Virus record (IMG/VR): IMGVR_UViG_2914923772_000011
Span: 1-64,000 of that record
Direction: 5' to 3' (one strand)
Source of the DNA: a virus
Taxonomy: Duplodnaviria > Caudoviricetes
Length of the DNA: 64,000 bases
The number at the start of each line of letters is the position of its first letter. Position 1 is the first letter of the stretch. This document shows, piece by piece, positions 13,941 through 46,803 of the stretch. A model generated the notes under the pieces. That model made no database searches. It saw only the letters and a list, made by a program, of their open reading frames with translations, and was not told the origin of the DNA. A program made the translations under genes and the position numbers.

Positions 13941-15173
13941 CTATTTTATTTTTTCGATTTCATCTTTCAACCACTCAAATTCTCTCTGGGTGTAAACCTT
14001 TTCGGTGATGTCAGAGATCTTGTGACCGACCATATATTTGATTGCGTACTCGTCAACGCCGTACTTCTTAGCCATCGTCACAAAATGTTTACGACCATCA
14101 TGCGGTCTATGCTCAGGGTTCAAATTCAATTCGTCTCGAATCATACCAAAGCCTTTTTGGTATCGAGCATAAGTAAGTGCAGTGTTTTTGCTACGAGCAT
14201 TCGAATTAACATAGTTGAGCAGGTACAGACTTCCAAGTTCCTGAGCCTCTTTATATTTTCGCTCAACCAAATGACGAATCTTCGAGTGAATTGGAACCAC
14301 ACGATCTGTACCGGCATCTGTTTTGATACCGCCTCGGAAAGTCCAGTTTTCCAAATCCACATTCTTTAATTCCAGCAAACCAAGTTCCTGGGGTCGCCAA
14401 CCAGAATAGCACTGAATGAGCAGGACATCTACAAGCATTTTATCATCAGCGTGTTTCCAAAGCAAGTCCATCTCTTCGTCCGTAAAAGGAATATGCTCAT
14501 TCTTAACTGTGACGATTTCTTTGATGGTTTCCTCACTGAGGTTAAAAGTTCGCGAATAGTTCCGGTCAACAAGCTCGTACTCCAAGGCATAATCCAACAT
14601 CAAGTTAAACAAAGACTTGATTTGGTTCTTCATGGATGCACTTGGTGTCTTCTCTTCGCCTCGAACCTTCGATATGCCTTCGTCCATACAACCTTTTACA
14701 TGACGAGCGCGGACATCTTTGACTCGCATATCATATACGGCCGAGCAATACCCCCATGCTGAAGCTACCGAACGAGTGCTTTTAACTGTCTTCTCGTATT
14801 CGGCAAGCCATTTCTCGTAAAGTTCCCTCATGGTGATAGATGGTTCGAGGTCGTAAGGGTTCTTATTGTACTCGACGAGAGCAGCATATGCCTCGTTGTA
14901 TGTTGGAAAATAGGACTCCGGTTTAAGAGGCTTGCAGATAGGTCGTCCGTTCGAATCCTTTCCGACACTTATCATAGCTCTAAATGGGTTGCGGAGATTC
15001 CGATTCTTGATCTCACTGATCTGCCCGAAACCGTTTGGCAGTCTACGGCGTTTATTGTTCTTATTTCGAGGTTTTCTTGGTTTTATATTTGGTTGCAATG
15101 GAAATCCGCAGTGAGGACAAGAAATTGCTTTGTCACTTACTTGTAGTTCACATTCAGGGCATTTTATCAGCAT
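13941..15173 (-). CDS. int: Tyrosine integrase with N-terminal zinc ribbon
   Basis: CPEC...CPHC N-terminus; catalytic R (SGWRPQE), K (IKTDAG), HDGR, VGH, VY; GGAAGGTG RBS before ATG 15173. Confidence 0.92.
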   Translation of the reverse strand: MLIKCPECELQVSDKAISCPHCGFPLQPNIKPRKPRNKNNKRRRLPNGFGQISEIKNRNLRNPFRAMISVGKDSNGRPICKPLKPESYFPTYNEAYAALVEYNKNPYDLEPSITMRELYEKWLAEYEKTVKSTRSVASAWGYCSAVYDMRVKDVRARHVKGCMDEGISKVRGEEKTPSASMKNQIKSLFNLMLDYALEYELVDRNYSRTFNLSEETIKEIVTVKNEHIPFTDEEMDLLWKHADDKMLVDVLLIQCYSGWRPQELGLLELKNVDLENWTFRGGIKTDAGTDRVVPIHSKIRHLVERKYKEAQELGSLYLLNYVNSNARSKNTALTYARYQKGFGMIRDELNLNPEHRPHDGRKHFVTMAKKYGVDEYAIKYMVGHKISDITEKVYTQREFEWLKDEIEKIK

Positions 15174-15207
15174 TATTATCACCTTCCCCATTGATTTGCT
15201 ATTAGTA

Positions 15208-15246
15208 ATCATATATCATAAGTGTAGGAATGTCAACTCCTACACT
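15208..15246 (-). promoter_or_regulatory. SigmaA promoter for integrase with operator-like inverted repeat around -35
   Basis: Minus strand TTGACA (15236-15231), 17 nt, TATGAT (15213-15208); AGTGTAGGA-N8-TCCTACACT palindrome at 15221-15246. Confidence 0.75.
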
Positions 15247-18991: not shown

Positions 18992-19063
18992 GACGGGTTA
19001 GCTCAGTTGGTAGAGCGCCACACTTCCGTGGAGGTCGTCGGTTCGAATCCGATACAGTCTCTC
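18988..19063 (+). ncRNA. tRNA-like RNA with aberrant anticodon and acceptor arms
   Basis: Canonical D arm (TAGCTCAGTTGGTAGAGC) and T arm (GTCGG-TTCGAAT-CCGAT). Anticodon arm is only CCAC-ACTTCC-GTGG. Closing stem GAGAGAC/GTCTCTC; no CCA. Confidence 0.7.
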
Positions 19064-19097
19064 TTGCTTTTTATTTTCGCATGAAAGGAGAAAAGAC

Positions 19098-19418
19098 ATG
19101 AGCATCGATCAGCTTGATCTAATCTTGTATGACATGTACCGCATGGACGCTTGGCTGCCGCCTTTGTTTGGTAAATGGACGGAAGATTATAAAAAAGCGA
19201 GTTACTCACAATGGGCTGTCGACGAGCTCAGAGATTTTATCGCCGAACGGATTTACCCTCGAAAAGAAGGGTCTATTGATGAATTCTGTAAGCTCACGCA
19301 CGAATTCATGATGAAGACAGCTAAGTATGCGAGGGTGAATCCAAACACAAGTCTTATGTTCCGATCTGCCAGTGAAATGGCAGCGAACATTTTAGACCTT
19401 CTAAGGGCTATGGAATAA
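19098..19418 (+). CDS. Hypothetical phage protein
   Basis: 106 aa; GAAAGGAGAAAAGAC RBS. Confidence 0.75.
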   Translation: MSIDQLDLILYDMYRMDAWLPPLFGKWTEDYKKASYSQWAVDELRDFIAERIYPRKEGSIDEFCKLTHEFMMKTAKYARVNPNTSLMFRSASEMAANILDLLRAME

Positions 19419-19442
19419 CAAAAGCATGAAAGGAGAAAAGAC

Positions 19443-20267
19443 ATGAACAAAAACCAAGCAATTCAAAAGTTGCTGCATAAGTCAGGGCTTTGTATCAGGA
19501 AATACTCACCTGTTGCATTGTCTTGTGTAGCATCAGCCGGCGTGGTAGTCACGGCAATTGCAGCAGCCAAAGCGACCCCACGAGCAGTAGCGTTAGTTTA
19601 TGCAGACAGTCGCAAAAAGCATGATGGCGATCCATATGCGTACACCAAGAAAGAGGCGTTCATCGCTGCATGGAAATGTTATATTCCGGCAGTGGCATTT
19701 GGAGCTTCTACTATCGCTTGCATTATGGGTGCCAATGCCTTAAATCGACGCCAACAGGCAGCACTAACAAGTGCGTATGCTCTCGTCCAAAGTTCTTATA
19801 AGGAATATAAGGACAAGCTGAAAGAACTCTATGGAGAAGAAGCACATAATGCAATCATGGATTCCATCATCAAGGAAAAGTGCAAGGACATCAGCATCTC
19901 TGCTAATGGAGGTTGGTACGATTCTTCTCTTGACTTTGGCGAAGGCATGGAGCCTGAGGTTACTCGTACTTTCTACGATAGTTTTTCACAAAGATATTTT
20001 GTGTCAACAATCGAGAAAGTTATCCAGGCTGAGTACCATCTGAACCGCAATTTTATGTTCGCAGGGGTTATCCCACTTAATGACTTTTACGAGTTTCTTG
20101 GGCTTGAAAAGACGGAACTCGGAGATGCCGTAGGATGGTCAAGCTGTAATGGCGATATTTATTGGATCGACTTTAACCATCACCGACTCACTTTGGATGA
20201 CGGCATGGAGATATATGTTATTGACATGGTTTTTGAGCCTACAGCTGAGTGGATGGAAGATCTGTAA
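19443..20267 (+). CDS. DUF6353-like membrane-anchored protein, paralog 1
   Basis: KYSPVAL...TAIAAAKATP hydrophobic segment; C-terminal FYDSFSQRYF...LNDFYEFLGL...GW. Confidence 0.75.
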   Translation: MNKNQAIQKLLHKSGLCIRKYSPVALSCVASAGVVVTAIAAAKATPRAVALVYADSRKKHDGDPYAYTKKEAFIAAWKCYIPAVAFGASTIACIMGANALNRRQQAALTSAYALVQSSYKEYKDKLKELYGEEAHNAIMDSIIKEKCKDISISANGGWYDSSLDFGEGMEPEVTRTFYDSFSQRYFVSTIEKVIQAEYHLNRNFMFAGVIPLNDFYEFLGLEKTELGDAVGWSSCNGDIYWIDFNHHRLTLDDGMEIYVIDMVFEPTAEWMEDL

Positions 20268-26341: not shown

Positions 26342-26557
26342 ATGATTCATACGCAAGTGTACGGGTTTTTTCAGACATGCTTACCCGACCAGGCAAAGGA
26401 GGTAAAAGAATACTTCCCAAATGGTAAAAACAGCATTCGAATTCGCAAAACCAACGGACAGAAATTTATATTTTCGTTGAGAGAGCCGAAGGCTTGGAAG
26501 TTTGAAACGATCGAACAATTTCTTGCCGACATGAAAGGAGAAAAGAAACATGGATGA
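26342..26557 (+). CDS. Hypothetical phage protein
   Basis: 71 aa; AGGGAG RBS. Confidence 0.65.
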   Translation: MIHTQVYGFFQTCLPDQAKEVKEYFPNGKNSIRIRKTNGQKFIFSLREPKAWKFETIEQFLADMKGEKKHG

Positions 26558-26792: not shown

Positions 26793-29700
26793 ATGATCGA
26801 CTTTTTAATGATTTCGACCCGTAGTACGAAGCGTGGTGTAATAGAAATCTATCCGAAGTTCATCATTAAGAAAAGCTCCGACCTGATGATTAGAGGCGGT
26901 GACTTCTATGCCATTTGGTTAGAAGACCGAGGTTTATGGTCTACGGATGAGCAAGATGCGCTCCAGCTTATTGACCGGGAACTTGACAAGTATGCAGAGG
27001 AAAACCGCAAAAACTTTGATTCGAGTATTAAAGTTCTGCACATGTGGGATTCCGAATCTGGAATGATCGATTCATGGCATAAATACTGTCAAAAGCAGAT
27101 GCGAGACTCTTTCCACATGCTTGATGAGAAACTTATATTCTCCAATACACCGACGAACAAAAAAGACTACGCAAGTAAGCGGCTGAACTATCCTCTTGAA
27201 GAAGGGGCCACGGATGCATGGAATAAGCTGATGTCCACAATTTACTCTAAAGAAGAGCGAACGAAAATTGAATGGGCTATTGGTTCTATTGTCTGTGGAG
27301 AGTCGAAGAAATTGCAGAAATTTATGGTTCTGTACGGTGCAGCAGGTACGGGTAAGTCTACGGTTCTGAACATTGTTCAGCAGCTCTTTGAAGGATATTA
27401 TTCTGTCTTCGATGCGAAAGCACTGGGTTCGTCCAGTAATTCCTTTGCATTAGAGGCATTCAAGACGAATCCACTTGTGGCAATTCAGCATGACGGTGAC
27501 TTATCTCGCATCGAGGACAACACCCGACTGAACAGTTTGGTTTCTCACGAGCTGATGACAGTAAATGAAAAGTTCAAATCGACCTACGCAAACCGCTTCA
27601 AGTGCTTCCTGTTCATGGGCACCAATAAACCGGTCAAGATTACGGACGCAAAGTCAGGTCTTATCAGACGATTGATCGATGTGTCCCCTTCCGGAAACAA
27701 ATTGAGTCCCAAGGAATACAAGGCGGTGACAAAGCAAATCGAATTTGAACTCGGTGCAATTGCTTATCATTGCCAGGAAGTCTATCTGGAGAATCCGGGC
27801 AGATACGATGATTATATTCCCGTGACGATGCTCGGTGCATCTAATGATTTCTATAACTTCATTATTGATTCTTACCATGTCTTCAAGAAAGAAGACGGGA
27901 CAACTCTCAAAGCCTCATGGGAGATGTATAAAACCTATTGCGATGAGGCAAAAGTTACCTTCCCGTTCTCTCAGAGGATATTTAAGGAGGAACTGAAAAA
28001 CTACTTCCGGGATTACAAGGAGAGATTCAATCTTGATGACGGAACTCGTGTGCGAAGCTATTACATTGGCTTTCGAACCGAAAAATTCGAGGATAAGGCA
28101 CTTACCGAGCAAGACGAGCCTGAGCATAAACTGATCGAATTCTTAAAACAGAAATCGGTCTTCGATAGAGAATGCGCAGATTGTCCTGCTCAGTATGCTT
28201 CGGCTAAAGAGACACCAACTTCCAAATGGGATGAAGTTTCAACTAAGCTAAGCAACTTGACGACATCAAGATTGCATTATGTGAAAGTCCCGGAGAACCA
28301 CATTGTTATCGACTTTGATATTCAGGATAAGGACGGCAATAAGTCGTATGAACTGAATCTCAAAGAAGCGAGTAAATGGCCGCCGACCTATGCTGAACTC
28401 AGCAAAAGCGGTCAGGGCATCCACCTTCATTATATTTATGCTGGTGATGTCAGCAAGCTCAGCCGAGTGTATGACGATCATATTGAAGTGAAGGTCTTCA
28501 CCGGTAAAAGCTCGCTGCGCAGAAAGCTGACAAAGTGTAATGATCTGCCTATCGCAACGATCAACTCGGGTTTACCACTGAAAGGAGAAAAACAAGTGAT
28601 AAATTTTGAAGGAGTGAAGAGCGAGAAAGGGCTTAGAACGCAAATCAAGCGAAATCTGAACAAGGAGTACCATCCGGCAACAAAGCCCAGTATCGACTTC
28701 ATTTACAAGATTCTTGAGGATGCTTATGCAAGCGGACTCAATTATGACGTGACTGATATGCGCAATGCTGTCTTGGCATTTGCAGCGAGCAGCACACATC
28801 AGGCGGATTACTGTATCAAGTTAGTCAACAAGATGCAGTTTAAGTCCGCAGACCAGTCAGCAGGAGCAAAAAATGATGATGCCAAGCTCGTGTTCTATGA
28901 TGTTGAGGTATTTCCGAACCTGTTCTTGGTGAACTGGAAAATCGAGGGCGAGGGTAAGCCGGTGGTTCGTATGATTAACCCTACCCCGACTGAGATTGAA
29001 GAGCTGATGCGATTCCGTCTGGTTGGCTTCAACTGCCGTCGATACGACAACCATATTCTCTATGCTCGGCTGATGGGGTATACGAACGAACAGCTTTATA
29101 ATCTCTCGACAAAGATCATCAACGGCAGCGCAAATTGCTTCTTTGGCGAAGCCTATAATGTGTCGTATACGGATGTGTATGACTTTTCCAGTAAGAAGCA
29201 GTCCCTTAAGAAGTTCGAGATTGAACTGGGTATTCACCATCAGGAACTTGGTCTGCCTTGGGACAAGCCTGTGCCGGAGGAGCTTTGGACTAAGGTTGCT
29301 GAGTATTGCGACAACGATGTCATTGCGACAGAAGCAACCTTTAATGCTCGTAAGGCGGACTTCACGGCTCGTCAGATTCTGGCAGATGTGGCGGGGATGT
29401 CCGTCAATGATACAACGAACTCGCTGACTACCAGAATTATATTTGGTAACAACCGCAAGCCTCAGGATCAGTTCAATTACCGTTTCATGGGTGACGAGAG
29501 TCAAATCTTCGACCCTAATGCGGATCTTCCGTTTACAATGGGGCTTGAAGACTACGACGAGTTCACACAGTTCGATAAAAACCATCGTCCCATCTTTCCT
29601 GGCTACACATTCGAGGGCGGCAAGTCTGTCTACAGAGGTGAAGAAGTCGGTGAGGGCGGCTATGTATATTCTGAACCCGGTATGTACAGTAACATTGCTC

Positions 29701-31680: not shown

Positions 31681-31701
31681 TAACCGAAAGGAGGTAAAGC
31701 C

Positions 31702-32571
31702 ATGTTGTGGCAGAAAAAGAAGAAACGCAAAAAGGCTACCAAGCCTAAAGCAGTTACTTTAGTTGCTCCTCAGCAGCCGGTGGAAGAGATTCCGCAAACG
31801 ACTGAGCCTGAGGAAAAAGAAGAAACGCCAAAGCAAAAAAAGCCCGCTGGGGAAAAATACAAAAAGGTTTTGTCCCCGGAAAAAGCTTTCTTAGATGCAT
31901 TCGGACGATTGACTAACCGACATCGGGCTTGGGATGTTTGGCGTGACTTCATCACTATGTTCGCTTGTTCGCTATCTAATCCTCTCGATAAGGAGCACCG
32001 GGATAAGCGAGAAGCGTTATATTTGGAAATCATCAAAAAGTACAATAAGCAGGAACAAGAGGTGTTTCCTGAACTGGCTGCTCAGACTGTCTTGGCTTTG
32101 GAAGAAAATCCGGAGCAGGACTTTCTGGGCAGCATTTTCATGTCCCTTAAGCTCGGTGACGAGCATAACGGTCAGATCTTCACACCGTATCATGTCTGTG
32201 AACTAATGGCTGAAATGACGATGGATGATGTTGTAAAAAAGGTAGAACAGGACGGTTATATTTCAATTAACGATCCGTGCTGCGGAGCTGGGGCCACATT
32301 GATTGCCGGAATCCACACTGCAAGGAAGCAGTTGGAAAAAGTAAACTTGAACTACCAAAATCATCTTCTCGTCGTTGCACAGGATATCGATGAAACGGTG
32401 GCGCTTATGTGTTATATTCAGCTTTCACTTTTGGGGGTAGCAGGATATGTAAAGGTCGGAAACTCTCTGACAGAACCGATGACAGACAACGACAATAAAG
32501 AGAACTACTGGTTCACGCCAATGTATTATTCTAATGTCTGGGTGCTGCGTCGGATCTTCGGAGGGCGCTGA
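31702..32571 (+). CDS. N6-adenine DNA methyltransferase-like protein lacking a canonical NPPY motif
   Basis: QIFTPYHV, SAM motif INDPCCGAG, AQDID; ends YWFTPMY. Confidence 0.7.
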   Translation: MLWQKKKKRKKATKPKAVTLVAPQQPVEEIPQTTEPEEKEETPKQKKPAGEKYKKVLSPEKAFLDAFGRLTNRHRAWDVWRDFITMFACSLSNPLDKEHRDKREALYLEIIKKYNKQEQEVFPELAAQTVLALEENPEQDFLGSIFMSLKLGDEHNGQIFTPYHVCELMAEMTMDDVVKKVEQDGYISINDPCCGAGATLIAGIHTARKQLEKVNLNYQNHLLVVAQDIDETVALMCYIQLSLLGVAGYVKVGNSLTEPMTDNDNKENYWFTPMYYSNVWVLRRIFGGR

Positions 32572-34727: not shown

Positions 34728-34751
34728 TATTTCTGAAAGGAGAAAAGAAAC

Positions 34752-35051
34752 ATGAATCTTGAGGAGTTCAGAAAGGCACTTTCGTCAGATGCTACTGAAG
34801 AGAATGCACAACTGAAAAGACAGTTGTCAGACCTTCAGACTGAATACCATGAAAAGCTTTCAAAACTCGAAAATGAAAACGATTCACTTAAAGAAAGTTG
34901 TCGGGTTTTATGCAATCGATGCTTTACTCTTACGAGAGGTGTTACTTGTCTATTTTGTGGTCTCGATTACCCCTGCCCTCATATGCCGGGGCTTGAGGAA
35001 CAGGTGGCTATGGCTCATAAATTGAGAAAGGAGATCGAAAAAAATGGCTAA
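34752..35051 (+). CDS. Coiled-coil / Cys-cluster protein
   Basis: 99 aa; GAAAGGAGAAAAGAAAC RBS. Confidence 0.7.
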   Translation: MNLEEFRKALSSDATEENAQLKRQLSDLQTEYHEKLSKLENENDSLKESCRVLCNRCFTLTRGVTCLFCGLDYPCPHMPGLEEQVAMAHKLRKEIEKNG

Positions 35052-42941: not shown

Positions 42942-45662
42942 ATGAGTCTCACGGATGATATTTTAATGCATTACGGTATGCCCAGAAGGTCTGGTCGTTA
43001 TCCTTGGGGTTCGGGTGATAACCCTTATCAGCACAGCGGTGATTTTCTTTCCCGTGTAGAGGAACTGAAAAAGTCCAATTTCACCTTTACCGATAAAGAT
43101 GGAAAAACTTACACAGGAGAAGTAGCCATTGCAAAATCTATGGGCTTGAGTACAACCCAATTTCGTACCCAGATGAGCCTTGCAAAGGATGAACGCCGTT
43201 CTGCTGATGTCGCTACGGCTAAGGCTCTTCGTGCTAAGGGTTATAGTTTGAATGAAATCGCTGATAAGATGGGCTTTGCTAACGATTCTTCGGTTCGCTC
43301 GCTTTTGAATGAGAGTTCCGAAGCTCGTATGAATCAGGCAAAGCAGACCGCTGAATTTCTGAAAAAACAGATTTCGGAAAAAGGCATGATCGATGTCGGA
43401 ACCGGAGTCGAAAGAGAGCTTGGTATTTCGAAAGAGAAAATGAACCAGGCTCTTTATATTTTGGAAATGGAAGGCTATCCCATCTATGGCGGCGGTGTCC
43501 CTCAGGTAACAAACCCGGGTAAGCAAACAAACATCAAGGTTCTCTGCCCTCCAGGAACAGAGCATAAAGAGATTTATAATTTCGAGAATGTCCATTCCGT
43601 CAGAGACTATGTGTCTCATGATGACGGCGAGACATTCGACAAGTTTGTCTATCCTAAAAGTATGGATTCAAGCCGCTTGAAAATCCGTTATGCGGAAGAT
43701 GGCGGTATTCAGAAAGATGGTGTCATTGAAATTCGTCGTGGTGTAGACGACTTATCTCTCGGTGATTCCCATTATGCTCAGGTTCGCATCTTGGTCGACG
43801 GCAATAGATATCTGAAAGGAATGGCTGTTTATTCTGATGATCTTCCTGATGGTGTGGATGTAATGTTCAACACCAATAAGAAAAAGGGCACTCCGACATC
43901 GGATGTTCTGAAGAAGGTAAAGGATGACCCCGATAATCCGTTTGGTTCCCTTATCAAAGCCGGTGGGCAGAGCTATTATATCGATGCTGATGGTAAACGA
44001 CAGCTCTCCCTTATCAATAAGCGTGCTGAAGAGGGCGATTGGGGTGAATGGGCGGATAAACTCCCCTCCCAGTTTCTTTCTAAACAGAGTTTGAGTCTTG
44101 TCAATAAACAGCTGAATTTGGCGGCATCTGATAAGATGGCTGAATTTGATGAAATCTGCTCACTGACAAATCCGACGGTCAAAAAATCATTACTGAAATC
44201 CTTTGCGGATGATTGTGACTCTGCTGCTGTGCACCTTCAGGCAGCTGCTCTTCCTCGTCAGAAATATCAGGTGATCCTACCTATCACTTCGATGAAAGAC
44301 AATGAAGTGTATGCCCCGAATTACAAGAATGGTGAAACAGTAGCTCTGGTTCGTTACCCACATGGCGGAACTTTTGAGATTCCTATCCTTACAGTGAATA
44401 ACAAGCAGGCAGAGGCTCGTCGAATCCTTGGCAACACACCTAAAGATGCAATCGGTATTAACAGTAAGGTTGCGGAACGGCTTTCAGGTGCTGACTTTGA
44501 TGGTGATACTGTCATGGTCATCCCCTGTAACTCTGGTAAAAGCAAGGTCAAGATTACTTCCACTCCTCCTCTGAAGGGACTTGAAGGATTTGACCCAAAA
44601 TTGGAGTATGGTGGAAAACCGGCTGGCACTTTCAAGCCTATGAAGAACACACAGAAAGAGATGGGTGTCATTTCTAATCTGATTACCGATATGACTTTGA
44701 AGGGTGCCACGCAGGATGAGCTTGCAAGAGCCGTTCGCCATAGCATGGTAGTTATCGATGCCGAAAAACACAAGCTGGACTATAAGCAAAGTGAGATCGA
44801 CAATGGCATCAGCTCTTTGAAAAAGAAGTATCAGGGCACGGTTGACGAAGACGGAAGATACCACGAGGGTGCTTCGACTCTGATTTCCCGTGCTAAATCG
44901 GAGACTTCTGTCACTAAGAGGCAAGGTAGTCCGAAAATCGATGAAAAGACAGGCGAATACATATGGAAAGATGTGGATGACCCTGTTTATGTCGATAAGC
45001 GAACTGGCAAGGTCAAAGAGCGTACTCAGCCCAGCACTAAGATGGCTGAGGCAAAGGACGCCTATACCCTGGTTTCCGAAGCTGATACCCCCGTGGAGCG
45101 TGCTTATGCTAACTATGCCAACAAAATGAAAGCCCTGGGCAACCAGGCTCGTCTTGAGATCCTCTCCACTGGGAAAGTACCCTACTCCGCCACTGCAAAA
45201 GAGGCCTATCAAGCTGAGGTCGATTCTCTGAATGCTAAGCTCAATGTAGCTCTGAAGAATGCACCCAGAGAAAGGCAGGCTCAGACTATGGCTAATGCGG
45301 TAGTGGCTGCTAAAAAGCAGGACAATCCGGATATGACAAAGGGCGAGCTCAAGAAAGCAAGCCAGCAGGCGCTTACTCAGGCTCGTGCCTCTGTTGGTGC
45401 AAAGCGAGAGACCATCAAGATTACAGATCGTGAATGGGAAGCAATTCAAGCTGGCGCTATTAGCGAGAATAAGCTTACCCAAATCATCGACAATGTGGAC
45501 ATTGACAGTCTTAGACAGCGTGCAACACCGAGAGCGACAACAACTCTCAGCACTGCAAAGCAGAATAAGATCGCTTCGATGAATGCTTCTGGTTACAGCA
45601 CATCGGAAATTGCTGAAGCTCTTGGCATTTCTACGAGCACAGTGTCCAATTACTTGAATTGA
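42942..45662 (+). CDS. Single-chain two-barrel (DPBB) RNA polymerase with fused HTH domains
   Basis: AQVR-x7-LKGM (cellular RdRP-type barrel motif), VRYPH (R471), GADFDGD (D518-D522); HTH-like segments near N-terminus and at C-terminus. Confidence 0.8.
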   Translation: MSLTDDILMHYGMPRRSGRYPWGSGDNPYQHSGDFLSRVEELKKSNFTFTDKDGKTYTGEVAIAKSMGLSTTQFRTQMSLAKDERRSADVATAKALRAKGYSLNEIADKMGFANDSSVRSLLNESSEARMNQAKQTAEFLKKQISEKGMIDVGTGVERELGISKEKMNQALYILEMEGYPIYGGGVPQVTNPGKQTNIKVLCPPGTEHKEIYNFENVHSVRDYVSHDDGETFDKFVYPKSMDSSRLKIRYAEDGGIQKDGVIEIRRGVDDLSLGDSHYAQVRILVDGNRYLKGMAVYSDDLPDGVDVMFNTNKKKGTPTSDVLKKVKDDPDNPFGSLIKAGGQSYYIDADGKRQLSLINKRAEEGDWGEWADKLPSQFLSKQSLSLVNKQLNLAASDKMAEFDEICSLTNPTVKKSLLKSFADDCDSAAVHLQAAALPRQKYQVILPITSMKDNEVYAPNYKNGETVALVRYPHGGTFEIPILTVNNKQAEARRILGNTPKDAIGINSKVAERLSGADFDGDTVMVIPCNSGKSKVKITSTPPLKGLEGFDPKLEYGGKPAGTFKPMKNTQKEMGVISNLITDMTLKGATQDELARAVRHSMVVIDAEKHKLDYKQSEIDNGISSLKKKYQGTVDEDGRYHEGASTLISRAKSETSVTKRQGSPKIDEKTGEYIWKDVDDPVYVDKRTGKVKERTQPSTKMAEAKDAYTLVSEADTPVERAYANYANKMKALGNQARLEILSTGKVPYSATAKEAYQAEVDSLNAKLNVALKNAPRERQAQTMANAVVAAKKQDNPDMTKGELKKASQQALTQARASVGAKRETIKITDREWEAIQAGAISENKLTQIIDNVDIDSLRQRATPRATTTLSTAKQNKIASMNASGYSTSEIAEALGISTSTVSNYLN

Positions 45663-45676
45663 AAGGAGTGACTGGT

Positions 45677-45940
45677 ATGAATGGTTCTTGTGCCCTTACC
45701 ACATTTGACAACCCTTACAATCCATTTGAACAGTTCTCCGATTGGTTCCTGTTTGATGTAGAAAAGGGTTACAACACTTGCGCTTATCTCGATCGAATTG
45801 CTCACACTTCTGACCAATTCTCTGAAGAAGAGAACAATCAAGAGATTGAAAGAGCGATTGACGAGATCATTCGTTACGACTTCATGAACATTTACAAGAA
45901 AGTTAAGAGAACGAAAACAACAAAAGCAGACAAGGCTTGA
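45677..45940 (+). CDS. Hypothetical phage protein
   Basis: 87 aa, LTTFDNPYNPF; GAAAGGAG RBS. Confidence 0.75.
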   Translation: MNGSCALTTFDNPYNPFEQFSDWFLFDVEKGYNTCAYLDRIAHTSDQFSEEENNQEIERAIDEIIRYDFMNIYKKVKRTKTTKADKA

Positions 45941-46068
45941 ACTATAGGTTGAGGTCTAATGCTCTTTGAATAAAGTTTTTGTTTTCTTCTCTGAAAACAT
46001 TTGAACTTGAAGCCAACACAAACAAATAATCACTTGATCTGCACTGCTGCCGCAGGGCTTAAAGACAT

Positions 46069-46140
46069 GGGGAGGGGGTCTCCAAAATCGCACCCCCTAC
46101 CTCATCGCGGTGGTCTTAAAAAAATCTCCGGAGGGATATT
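46069..46140. other. Candidate cos / packaging initiation region
   Basis: GGGGAGGGGGT...ACCCCCTACC inverted tract then CGCGGTGGT and AAAAAAATCTCCGGAGGG, upstream of HNH and terminase genes; exact cut not determinable. Confidence 0.45.
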
Positions 46141-46163
46141 TTGGAAATGGGGTTTACCCCACG

Positions 46164-46295
46164 GGTGCAGTATTTGAACGAGCTTACAGGGTTGAGACAT
46201 TTTCCATAAAGTGTGAACATCTCCTTTCATGTTTCTTTTCTCCTTTCGGTGATTGGTGGAAATTCAACTCTGTAAGTTCTTTCAAATACTGCACC
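46164..46295 (+). ncRNA. Long-hairpin RNA displaying two anti-Shine-Dalgarno sequences
   Basis: 33-bp stem (46164-46196 with 46263-46295: 1 mismatch, 3 G-U) plus 7-bp inner stem. CUCCUUUC in an 8-nt loop (46221-46228) and again at 46240-46247. Confidence 0.65.
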
Positions 46296-46346
46296 TATTC
46301 TCACCTAAAAGAGCATCGGTTCAGATAAAAAGTGCAGTACAAGTAT

Positions 46347-46434
46347 GCGGATATGGCGGAACTGGCAGACGCAATAGACTCAGAATTTATTGGAGGTTAT
46401 CTCCGTGCAGGTTCAACTCCTGTTATCCGCACCA
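46347..46434 (+). tRNA. tRNA-Leu(CAG)
   Basis: GCGGATA/TATCCGC acceptor stem, anticodon loop CTCAGAA, long variable arm, TTCAACT T-loop, encoded ACCA end. Confidence 0.9.
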
Positions 46435-46461
46435 AATTTTTTAAGAGAGGAGGCAGTGCCA

Positions 46462-46803
46462 ATGCCAAAAGGTAAAGCTGCAAGCTCTTCCGACTCAAAC
46501 AGCCCATTGAGACCACCGACATCTCTCGAAGCGCAAGAGAACTTAATGATTTCTTTGGCGGTTCAATGTGCTGAAAAGCAGCTCAGAGACGGAACTGCTT
46601 CTTCTCAGGTCATAACACATTATTTGAAGCTCGGTTCCAGTAAGGAACGAATTGAAAAGGAGATTCTGGAGAAGCAGAAAGAGCTTATCGAAGCGAAGAC
46701 CAAGAATCTAAATTCCAACAGTGAAGCCAAGGAGTTGTACAACAAGGCTCTCGAAGCGTTTAGGAGATATTCCGGTGCAGGCGGTGAAGACGATGAGTAT
46801 TAA
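46462..46803 (+). CDS. Putative terminase small subunit
   Basis: 113 aa, helical; position between cos-like region and HNH/TerL; assigned mainly by position. Confidence 0.5.
   Translation: MPKGKAASSSDSNSPLRPPTSLEAQENLMISLAVQCAEKQLRDGTASSQVITHYLKLGSSKERIEKEILEKQKELIEAKTKNLNSNSEAKELYNKALEAFRRYSGAGGEDDEY

What the first reader, a model, noticed from the sequence alone, without database searches (positions are those of the whole stretch)
46164..46295. Anti-Shine-Dalgarno hairpin RNA antisense to the phage's own early-gene start sites
Seen: 46164-46196 pairs with 46263-46295 over 33 bp with one mismatch and three G-U pairs. Those pairs work only on the + strand (C-A on the - strand), so the folded molecule should be + strand RNA. 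A small inner stem (GAACAT/ATGTTT) presents CUCCUUUC as its exact 8-nt loop, and a second UUUUCUCCUUUC lies unpaired at 46236-46247. The 20-mer 46228-46247 is the perfect reverse complement of GAAAGGAGAAAAGAAACATG, the RBS plus start codon of two early genes (26533-26552 and 34735-34754). It nearly matches the starts at 19098, 19443 and 33823. Established: CUCCUUUC is the Firmicutes 16S rRNA 3' anti-SD. Inference: a trans-acting RNA with a toehold that blocks GAAAGGAG-type ribosome binding sites, shutting off early phage (and possibly host) translation late in infection or in the lysogen. I do not recognise it as a described RNA family.
Basis: partly seen in the sequence, partly recalled or inferred. 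Interest (0 to 1): 0.9.

Follow-up and report, generated by a model that had tools for sequence, protein, structure and literature searches.

The report
Phage leader RNA with anti-RBS loop
Just inside the left end of this Clostridium leptum prophage's DNA lies a conserved, undescribed hairpin RNA whose loop is the exact antisense of the ribosome-binding sites of the phage's own early genes, so it probably acts as a phage-made brake on early-gene translation, though no RNA or repression has been observed.

Summary
The stem has 33 bp, with one C.U mismatch and three G.U pairs. The loop carries two CUCCUUUC motifs. A 20-mer in the loop is antisense to two early-gene start sites.

The element is real and conserved. 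About 50 distinct relatives carry a 25-40 bp stem between the genome end (cos, 46114-46124) and the first late gene. These include Firmicutes prophages, Faecalibacterium phage FP_oengus and Arthrobacter phage Tokki. Arm sequences differ but stay paired: 24 of 32 pairs show compensatory changes, and 0 of 500 shuffles match this.

The fold belongs to the + strand. Stems hold 217 G.U against 19 A.C, and the + strand is more stable in 48 of 50 elements. The loop always carries UUCUCCUUUC.

The minus-strand 42-aa ORF is not conserved. The element is single-copy and has no Rfam match.

In several lineages the loop flanks track that phage's own phage-specific SD-plus-spacer, with exact matches of 14-38 nt. 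In other lineages only the 10-12 nt core matches. Matching start sites are enriched on the early side (57/361 vs 9/146).

Best reading, about 0.55: a leader RNA of the late operon that masks early ribosome-binding sites in trans, analogous to c4 RNA of P1/P7. Expression and repression are untested. This scan noted a similar leader RNA in another genome (e1-3504167).

The parts
46164..46196 (+). 5' arm of the long stem
   Evidence: Pairs with 46263-46295. In a 17-sequence alignment, 24 of 32 stem pairs show compensatory changes.
46263..46295 (+). 3' arm of the long stem
   Evidence: Same calls as the 5' arm. The G.U pairs work only on the + strand.
46197..46262 (+). 66-nt loop carrying the antisense (anti-RBS) sequences
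   Evidence: The core CATCTCCTTTCATGTTTCTTTTCTCCTTTCGGTGATTGG is almost invariant in relatives, while the flanks outside the stem vary.
46221..46228 (+). CUCCUUUC motif 1, in the 8-nt apical loop of a clade-specific mini-hairpin (46215-46234)
   Evidence: Unpaired probability 0.92. The mini-hairpin is found only in the closest clade.
46236..46247 (+). UUUUCUCCUUUC, motif 2. This is the motif conserved across the whole family as UUCUCCUUUC.
   Evidence: Present in about 50 distinct relatives. Unpaired probability 0.50 here.
46228..46247 (+). 20-mer exactly antisense to the SD, spacer and AUG of two early genes
26533..26552 (+). Predicted target: start region of a 77-aa early gene (phrog_16856)
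   Evidence: 20-nt exact complement and duplex energy -42 kcal/mol. Orthologues in G020 and G019 keep the match.
34735..34756 (+). Predicted target: start region of a 99-aa early gene
   Evidence: 22-nt exact complement and duplex energy -37.7 kcal/mol.
19083..19100 (+). Predicted target: start region of a 106-aa early gene (phrog_10740)
   Evidence: 14-nt exact match, -34.4 kcal/mol.
19428..19445 (+). Predicted target: start region of a 274-aa early gene (phrog_2152)
   Evidence: 14 nt here. Orthologues in G019, G020 and G023 carry the full 20-mer.
31683..31704 (+). 'Site X' upstream of the phrog_5696 and helicase genes. A weak match here, but the longest match in relatives.
   Evidence: 11 nt here, 38 nt in G021, 28 nt in G019 and 17 nt in G022 at the orthologous place.
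46114..46124 (.). Physical genome end (cos cleavage region), 40 nt left of the hairpin
   Evidence: A 100%-complete linear relative, G014, has ends that overlap by these 11 nt. Many contigs from several lineages start here.
46066..46150 (.). Conserved cos block: a GGGGG..ACCCCC hairpin, CATCGCGGyGGTCTT, an A/T run and TCTCCGGrGGnATATTTTGG
   Evidence: Conserved in all lineages inspected and unique in the record.
46347..46434 (+). tRNA-Leu(CAG), 51 nt downstream. tRNA processing would free the hairpin-bearing leader.
   Evidence: ARAGORN and Rfam. Processing is inference.
46462..46803 (+). First late-operon gene (phrog_4259, unknown function, in the small-terminase position). Its own RBS is GAGAGGAGGCAG.
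   Evidence: Its start region does not match the loop: longest shared stretch 5 nt here, mean 6.8 over 50 relatives.
42942..45662 (+). Phage single-chain two-barrel RNA polymerase candidate (ADFDGD motif, C-terminal HTH). Possible transcriber of the late operon.
   Evidence: phrog_4291, bit score 1373. Pfam HTH and sigma region 4 hits. Preprint 10.1101/842583. Its role here is inferred.

Best explanation
The element is a structured + strand RNA encoded 40 nt inside the left end of the mature phage genome. It sits in the untranslated leader of the late (packaging and structural) operon.

A 33-bp stem holds out a 66-nt loop. The pyrimidine motifs in that loop (UUCUCCUUUC plus flanks) are antisense to the Shine-Dalgarno sequence, spacer and start codon of a set of the phage's own early genes.

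Proposed mechanism, all inferred:
- When rightward transcription crosses cos into the late operon, the leader accumulates. The phage's own YonO-like RNA polymerase may do this transcription. The neighbouring tRNA-Leu processing, or RNase III cutting of the long stem, may free the leader.
- The exposed loop pairs with GAAAGGAGAA-type start regions. Pairing covers 12 nt at minimum and 20-38 nt at the best targets. The 16S rRNA tail can offer only about 8 nt there, so 30S binding is blocked and the duplex may be cut.
- The result is shut-off of a subset of early genes once late expression begins.

Late genes, notably the first one (GAGAGGAGGCAG), use start regions that the loop does not match.

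Shown here: the structure, its strand, its conservation, its position, and the complementarity with its partial co-variation.
Inferred: transcription, timing, trans action and repression.
For: 1. Structure under selection. Of 32 stem pairs, 24 have compensatory changes and 97.5% of cells are paired. None of 500 shuffles reach this, and slid controls give 30-44% paired. About 50 distinct relatives have 25-40 bp stems with quite different arm sequences.

2. Strand. Stems hold 217 G.U against 19 A.C. The + strand is more stable in 48 of 50 elements, by 13.4 kcal/mol on average. This argues against duplex DNA or a cruciform.

3. The loop motif UUCUCCUUUC is retained in every lineage in the same orientation relative to the late genes, in Faecalibacterium phage FP_oengus as a near variant, UGUUCUCCUUUAUAC, and as CUCCUUUC in Arthrobacter phage Tokki.

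4. The loop tracks each phage's own start sites.
- The own loop has 6 exact matches of 14 nt or more in its own phage and 0-1 in eight other phages. The Bacilli-clade loops have 5-9 within their clade and 0-1 outside it.
- The reverse complement of the Bacilli-clade loop hits 4-8 sites on the gene strand of the same phage contig and almost nowhere else in genomes of 0.8-2.5 Mb.
- Phage G021 has a 38-nt perfect match, and G019 a 28-nt match that carries that lineage's own variant of the flank.
- In G021 the loop and two start regions share the same C-to-T change.
- Orthologous genes keep the match across phages.

5. Matching start regions are enriched on the early side: 57/361 against 9/146, p = 0.0018. 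In this phage GAAAGGAGA is found at 17/52 early against 3/33 late starts, p = 0.010. Duplex energy is -24.0 against -21.2 kcal/mol (p = 0.018), while binding to the generic 16S tail is equal.

6. The first late gene's start region avoids the loop.

7. The minus-strand ORF is not conserved. The element is single-copy per genome.
Against: - No RNA evidence of any kind.
- No promoter or terminator is recognisable next to the element, so it is not a classic stand-alone sRNA gene.
- Long complementarity is not universal. G024 and G025 carry the T-variant loop with no start region within 2 mismatches of the 20-mer. Five of nine lineages show no own-phage excess beyond the 11-13 nt core. The striking long matches could therefore come partly from sequence copying between start regions and the loop rather than from selection for pairing.
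- The core motif is simply the complement of a good SD, so some matching to any SD-rich genome is expected.
- Gene starts in my early/late counts were called by a crude ORF-plus-SD rule, and 'early side' includes some host flank in two prophages.
- In Arthrobacter phage Tokki the hairpin shows no strand asymmetry (-82.1 vs -86.5 kcal/mol) and the best matches are only 12 nt.
- The second motif is only half exposed.
Confidence: 0.55

Rival explanations
1. A purely cis-acting leader structure of the late mRNA. It could be a 5' stabiliser against RNase J1/Y, an RNase III processing site separating early from late message, or a put-like element that modifies the transcribing polymerase. The pyrimidine loop would then serve as a protein or polymerase contact rather than an antisense.
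For: - Its position is fixed, 30-165 nt upstream of the first late gene.
- It has no promoter or terminator of its own.
- A 30-bp perfect stem is a textbook RNase III substrate (own knowledge).
- In SPbeta the YonO-driven late operon also begins with an unannotated non-coding RNA (PMC5467207).
- Long target matches are absent in some relatives.
Against: - It does not explain why the loop flanks follow each phage's own SD-plus-spacer.
- It does not explain why the motif is exactly an SD complement in two phyla.
- It does not explain why early start regions match better than late ones.
- It is not exclusive of the main reading, since processing could be the maturation step.
Confidence: 0.2
2. 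The anti-SD loop acts in cis on the same transcript. It would sequester the ribosome-binding site of the first late gene through a loop-to-3'-flank pseudoknot and so gate late translation.
For: - The hairpin lies 30-165 nt upstream of that gene.
- In the Bacilli clade the first gene's start region does match the loop over 9-11 nt (L115, L124, L126, L130).
Against: - In most lineages the first late gene uses GAGAGGAGGCAG. This differs from the loop's complement at the two diagnostic positions.
- The longest shared stretch averages 6.8 nt over 50 relatives and is 5 nt here.
- In this phage a tRNA gene lies between the hairpin and that gene.
Confidence: 0.07
3. A DNA-level signal. It could be a cosB-like terminase assembly site, a cruciform next to cos, or a single-stranded + strand DNA hairpin used in replication or by the phage polymerase as a promoter.
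For: - It lies 40 nt from the cos cleavage region, between cos and the packaging genes, where lambda has cosB.
- In Arthrobacter phage Tokki both strands fold equally well.
- N4-type polymerases use DNA hairpin promoters (own knowledge).
Against: - The 217:19 excess of G.U over A.C and the 13 kcal/mol + strand advantage are not expected for duplex DNA or a cruciform.
- Arm sequences are not conserved, so they are not fixed protein sites.
- The spacing from cos varies from about 35 nt to more than 110 nt.
- Streptomyces phage Madamato has the same cos block, first gene and HNH gene but no hairpin, so homologous packaging works without it.
- A DNA signal need not mirror the phage's ribosome-binding sites.
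- A + strand ssDNA hairpin is not formally excluded.
Confidence: 0.1
4. A minus-strand coding or leader function. The GAAAGGAG in the loop would be a real ribosome-binding site for the 42-aa ORF (46102-46230) or for a mini-ORF.
For: In this phage the minus strand has a perfect SD, an 8-9 nt spacer and an ATG opening a 42-codon frame.
Against: - In relatives the frame is broken by 2- and 5-nt indels. Products range from 8 to 49 aa with no similarity.
- 9 of the 23 relatives checked have no start codon 4-11 nt after the SD.
- There is no family match.
- The ORF would run across the cos cut.
- The stem is selected on the opposite strand.
Confidence: 0.03

Closest known systems
c4 antisense RNA of phages P1 and P7 (Rfam RF01695)
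   Same: Both are phage-encoded structured RNAs whose exposed loop sequences are complementary to the ribosome-binding region of the phage's own mRNA and block its translation. In both, the loops carry the specificity and differ between related phages (described in PMC12197685).
   Different: - No sequence or structure match to the Rfam model.
- c4 is about 77 nt, belongs to the immunity operon, and acts on one target downstream in its own transcript to hold lysogeny.
- This element is about 130 nt with a 33-bp stem. It sits in the late-operon leader beside cos and matches many early start regions.
- The host range is Firmicutes and Actinobacteria rather than enterobacteria.
C-rich anti-SD small RNAs of Firmicutes (RsaE/RoxS, S. 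aureus RNAIII)
   Same: Unpaired pyrimidine motifs in loops pair with G-rich Shine-Dalgarno sequences of several mRNAs (own knowledge; also named in earlier scan note e1-5666134).
   Different: - Those are chromosomal, stand-alone genes with their own promoter and terminator. Their motifs are CCCC or UCCC.
- Here no promoter or terminator was found.
- The motif is UUCUCCUUUC, which equals the 16S tail except at one base and matches the phage consensus GAAAGGAGAA better than 16S does.
T4 RegB endoribonuclease
   Same: The proposed outcome is the same: a phage inactivates the Shine-Dalgarno sequences (GGAG) of its own early mRNAs to end early expression (PMC1702504).
   Different: RegB is a protein nuclease helped by ribosomal protein S1. 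The agent proposed here is an antisense RNA.
SPbeta YonO late operon
   Same: Both phages encode a single-chain two-barrel RNA polymerase. In SPbeta it starts the late operon upstream of 'an unannotated non-coding RNA' (PMC5467207). Here the RNA sits at the head of the late operon, downstream of a YonO-like polymerase gene.
   Different: The SPbeta RNA has not been characterised and I did not compare sequences. That this phage's polymerase transcribes the element is inference.
Lambda cosB
   Same: Same map position, between the cos cut and the first packaging gene.
   Different: cosB is a set of fixed protein-binding sites in duplex DNA. This element keeps pairing rather than sequence, is strand-asymmetric, and is absent from a relative with the same packaging genes.

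Membership tests
Any Rfam 15 family | Covariance-model match at the gathering score | tested here: not met
   Only the two tRNAs pass in the window. At E up to 10 the hairpin gives only a spurious plant miRNA-precursor hit, 21.5 bits against a cut-off of 211.
c4 antisense RNA (P1/P7) | Sequence and structure similarity to RF01695 | tested here: not met
   No hit in the permissive scan.
c4 antisense RNA (P1/P7) | Loop sequences complementary to the ribosome-binding region of the phage's own mRNA | tested here: met
   20-22 nt exact matches here and up to 38 nt in relatives.
c4 antisense RNA (P1/P7) | Encoded in the immunity operon, with its target downstream in the same transcript | tested here: not met
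   The element sits in the late leader and its matches lie in early genes 12-27 kb upstream. The adjacent downstream gene does not match.
Stand-alone trans-acting sRNA gene | Own promoter and intrinsic terminator | tested here: not met
   No sigma-70-like promoter within 130 nt upstream and no terminator-like site in 45600-46600. Promoters of the phage polymerase are unknown.
Stand-alone trans-acting sRNA gene | A detectable discrete transcript | not testable with these tools
Intrinsic terminator | A GC-rich short stem followed by a U tract | tested here: not met
   The stem is followed by CCUAUUCUCACC. The scan finds none.
Lambda-type cosB / terminase binding site | Conserved duplex-DNA protein sites at fixed spacing from the cut, needed wherever the terminase is homologous | tested here: not met
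   The arms vary in sequence, the fold is strand-asymmetric, the spacing varies, and the element is absent in Streptomyces phage Madamato.
MITE / small transposable element | Multiple copies per genome with target-site duplication | tested here: not met
   One copy in the record and one per host genome. There is no duplication at the flanks.
Invertible DNA switch (inverton) | Both orientations recurring in populations, with a nearby recombinase | tested here: not met
   Only one IMG/VR contig has the element inverted. No recombinase gene adjoins it.
Small protein gene (42-aa minus-strand ORF) | Reading frame and peptide conserved in relatives | tested here: not met
   Frames are broken or absent and the peptides are dissimilar.

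The most novel reading that the evidence does not exclude
A large phage supercluster spanning Firmicutes and Actinobacteria runs a sequence-addressed translational switch. Its early genes share a phage-private 'SD plus spacer' code. The leader RNA of the late operon carries the antisense of that code on a long stem and out-competes the 16S rRNA tail for it, so the onset of late transcription itself turns early translation off. The loop is kept in step with the code by repeatedly copying start regions into it in inverted orientation, much as plant miRNA genes arise from inverted copies of their targets. This would explain the 20-38 nt perfect matches that come and go between close relatives.
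Probability: 0.3. Interest if true: 0.85.

Novelty: new variant of a known kind. Interest (0 to 1): 0.75.

Why it matters
If this reading is right, the element is a widespread and so far undescribed RNA family. It occurs in gut Firmicutes prophages and in cultured phages of Faecalibacterium and Arthrobacter. It would give a simple RNA-only mechanism for the early-to-late switch at the level of translation, the RNA counterpart of T4 RegB.

It would also explain why these phages keep an unusually uniform, phage-specific ribosome-binding sequence on many early genes.

It would add a regulatory element to the little-studied phage group that carries YonO-like RNA polymerases.

The idea is directly testable because culturable systems exist: the C. 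leptum DSM 753 lysogen, FP_oengus, and SEA-PHAGES Arthrobacter phages.

The stem-and-loop design is also a natural template for programmable RBS-masking RNAs in Gram-positive bacteria.

Tried and rejected
- blastn of 45940-46350 against the phage collection found nothing. Relatives had to be reached through the neighbouring protein.
- The MITE idea is rejected: the element is single-copy.
- The terminator idea is rejected.
- The minus-strand ORF is rejected.
- Invertible-switch idea. My first diagnostic pattern was mis-specified and found nothing. The corrected pattern found only the one contig already known.
- Three-way compensatory change in G021. I first read this as decisive. Two other phages with the same loop variant lack matching start regions, so it counts as a single lineage event and could be sequence copying.
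- Own-phage excess of long matches is absent in G003, G004, G010, G011 and G012.
- A search of solved structures with the polymerase candidate gave only a chance hit. Its identity rests on the PHROG match, the ADFDGD motif and preprint 10.1101/842583.
- The 16-nt arm match at record position 65411 lies in coding sequence and looks like chance.
- The conserved cos block is not repeated elsewhere in the record, so it gives no lead to a phage-polymerase promoter motif.
- No paper describing this element was found.

Full report
**Observation.**
- Positions 46164-46196 pair with 46263-46295 over 33 positions, with one C.U mismatch and three G.U pairs.
- The + strand folds at -64.6 kcal/mol (z -7.75) and the - strand at -51.0.
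- The 66-nt loop holds CUCCUUUC twice. The first copy (46221-46228) sits in the 8-nt loop of a GAACAU/AUGUUU mini-hairpin, with unpaired probability 0.92. The second (46240-47) is half exposed.
- The 20-mer GAAAGGAGAAAAGAAACATG occurs exactly at 26533 (+), 34735 (+) and 46228-46247 (-), against 0.01 expected.
- In the 3.3-Mb genome of Clostridium leptum DSM 753, which carries an identical prophage, it occurs at those three places only.

**Setting.**
- The window is an IMG/VR provirus record of 74 kb.
- The integrase is at 13941-15212 (-). Early and replication genes follow on the + strand.
- Next come an exonuclease and a 906-aa protein (42942-45662). That protein matches phrog_4291 end to end, carries ADFDGD, and has a C-terminal HTH or sigma-region-4-like domain. 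A preprint identifies this family as YonO/crAss-like RNA polymerase candidates and as the signature of a phage supercluster shared by Actinobacteria and Firmicutes (10.1101/842583).
- After a 93-aa gene comes a 520-nt gap holding the hairpin and tRNA-Leu(CAG).
- Then follow the late genes: phrog_4259, HNH, connector and large terminase.
- The physical genome end lies in this gap. A 100%-complete linear relative has ends overlapping by 11 nt, equal to window 46114-46124. Contigs from several lineages start at GGT|CTTTAAAAA.
- A cos block is conserved in every lineage: a GGGGG..ACCCCC hairpin, CATCGCGGCGGTCTT, an A/T run and TCTCCGGGGGnATTTTTGG.
- The hairpin therefore starts 40 nt inside the left end of the virion DNA, at the head of the late operon.

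**Is it a real, selected element?** Yes.
- I used the first late protein as a handle and collected 80 IMG/VR loci and 55 loci from named genomes.
- Close relatives keep the arms and the loop core almost unchanged, while the sequence just outside the stem varies.
- Distant relatives (45-88% protein identity) come from Lachnospiraceae, Ruminococcus, Blautia, Hungatella and Bacilli MAGs. They have a 25-40 bp stem at the same place with quite different arm sequences.
- In a 17-sequence MAFFT alignment, 24 of 32 pairs show compensatory changes and 97.5% of cells pair. None of 500 shuffles reach this, and slid controls pair at 30-44%.
- A covariance model finds one copy per locus and one per host genome.
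- The model also finds the element in MT835495.1, just after the polymerase homologue, and in Arthrobacter phage Tokki at 401-525. A fold of the same gap in Faecalibacterium phage FP_oengus shows a 21-bp stem and a 125-nt loop containing UGUUCUCCUUUAUAC; the model scores that site at only 7.7 bits, E about 1.
- Rfam has nothing like it, and I found no paper on it.

**Which strand, and RNA or DNA?**
- Across 50 distinct elements the stems hold 217 G.U pairs and only 19 A.C juxtapositions on the + strand. Independent folds favour the + strand in 48 of 50, by 13.4 kcal/mol on average.
- Both mismatch types arise from transitions, so duplex DNA or a cruciform should show no such bias.
- The arms are not conserved in sequence. 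The spacing from cos varies from about 35 nt to more than 110 nt.
- Streptomyces phage Madamato has the cos block, the same first gene and the HNH gene but no hairpin.
- A packaging site is therefore unlikely. A + strand ssDNA hairpin is not formally excluded.
- The minus-strand 42-aa ORF fails. Relatives have 2- and 5-nt indels just after the ATG. Products range from 8 to 49 aa with no similarity, and many lineages have no start codon at all.

**What does the loop do?** Every lineage keeps UUCUCCUUUC on the + strand, often with a second CCUCCU or CUCCUUUC 15-40 nt upstream. This is the 16S tail sequence except for U in place of C before CUCC. It is therefore the perfect complement of GAAAGGAGAA, the form of ribosome-binding site these phages use on many genes.
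- In this phage 17 of 52 early-side starts carry GAAAGGAGA, against 3 of 33 late-side starts (p = 0.010).
- Pooled over eight phages, start regions sharing 11 nt or more with their own loop number 57/361 on the early side and 9/146 on the late side (p = 0.0018).
- Duplex energies favour early starts (-24.0 against -21.2 kcal/mol, p = 0.018), while binding to the generic 16S tail is equal.
- The first late gene uses GAGAGGAGGCAG in most lineages. This differs from the loop's complement at both diagnostic positions, and the longest shared stretch averages 6.8 nt. That argues against cis sequestration and fits avoidance of self-inhibition.

**Co-variation with targets.**
- In the Bacilli-type relatives the loop reads GUUUAUUCUCCUUUCUAAUU. 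Its complement, at up to 3 mismatches, hits 4-8 sites on the gene strand of the same phage contig and almost nothing else in genomes of 0.8-2.5 Mb.
- In a loop-by-phage matrix, the own loop has 6 exact matches of 14 nt or more in its own phage and 0-1 elsewhere. The Bacilli clade has 5-9 within the clade and 0-1 outside it.
- Orthologous genes (phrog_16856, phrog_2152) keep the match across phages.
- One place upstream of the phrog_5696 and helicase genes matches the loop over 38 nt in G021 and 28 nt in G019, each with its own lineage's version of the flank. It matches over only 11 nt here.
- In G021 the loop and two start regions share a C-to-T change.

**Limits.**
- Two other phages with that same loop variant have no such start regions.
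- Five of nine lineages show no own-phage excess beyond the 11-13 nt core.
- In Tokki the matches are 12 nt, found only at the first early genes, and the hairpin is not strand-biased.
- So the universal feature is the core complementarity. The long matches come and go, and may partly reflect copying of start regions into the loop.
- No transcript has been seen and no promoter or terminator flanks the element.

**Verdict.** The most likely reading (about 0.55) is a leader RNA of the late operon that masks GAAAGGAGAA-type early start regions in trans. The nearest analogue in mechanism is c4 RNA of P1/P7 (PMC12197685), and in outcome T4 RegB (PMC1702504). It is not a member of either family.

The main rival is a cis-acting leader role in stability, processing or antitermination, which could coexist with the main reading. 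I could not compare the sequences.

Noticed in passing
L058:51-182 (IMGVR_UViG_3300045988_009983), equivalent to window 46164-46295: One relative carries the whole element inverted. The arms are swapped, including their mismatch positions, and the covariance model scores 131 bits on the opposite strand. It is the only such contig found in IMG/VR. It could be a rare real inversion between the arms or an assembly flip.
   Followed up: yes
L043 and L062 (left arm); L055 and L066 (loop); window 46179-46182 and 46220-46239: In two relatives the left arm is converted towards a perfect complement of the right arm, which looks like template switching in a quasi-palindrome. Two others have lost exactly 20 nt between the two CTCCTTTC direct repeats, leaving a single motif.
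   Followed up: partly
window 46066-46150: The cos region is mapped. There is an 11-nt terminal overlap at 46114-46124. A strongly conserved block, with a G5/C5 hairpin and the palindromic TCCCCGGGGGA, is shared from Firmicutes prophages to Streptomyces and Arthrobacter phages.
   Followed up: partly
window 42942-45662: A 906-aa single-chain RNA polymerase candidate with ADFDGD and a C-terminal sigma-region-4-like HTH. It shares about 51% identity with proteins at the right genome end of Gordonia and Arthrobacter phages. No solved structure matches it by sequence.
   Followed up: partly
window 18992-19060: A second tRNA-like sequence passes the Rfam tRNA gathering score (39.6 bits) but is not called by ARAGORN.
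   Followed up: no
window 28580-28598: An early-type RBS (GAAAGGAGAAAA) plus an in-frame GTG lies inside the 1383-aa helicase-primase-polymerase gene. It also matches the hairpin loop over 12 nt, so an internal start, if real, would belong to the same predicted target set.
   Followed up: no
L182:40-530 (Arthrobacter phage Tokki, OK310503.1): The 600-nt left-end leader of Tokki holds three long hairpins (about 46-145, 146-248 and 401-525). Only the last carries CUCCUUUC in its loop.
   Followed up: partly
G001:C9, G007:C18, G002:C2 (Bacilli-type relatives): These phages use a highly uniform, phage-specific start region, TTAGAAAGGAGAATAAAC, on many genes. It is nearly absent from the rest of the host MAGs.
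   Followed up: partly
G000 record 65411-65427 (beyond the window): A 16-nt copy of the outer arm sequence, TGCAGTATTTGAAAGA, lies inside coding sequence. It is probably chance (E about 0.01).
   Followed up: partly
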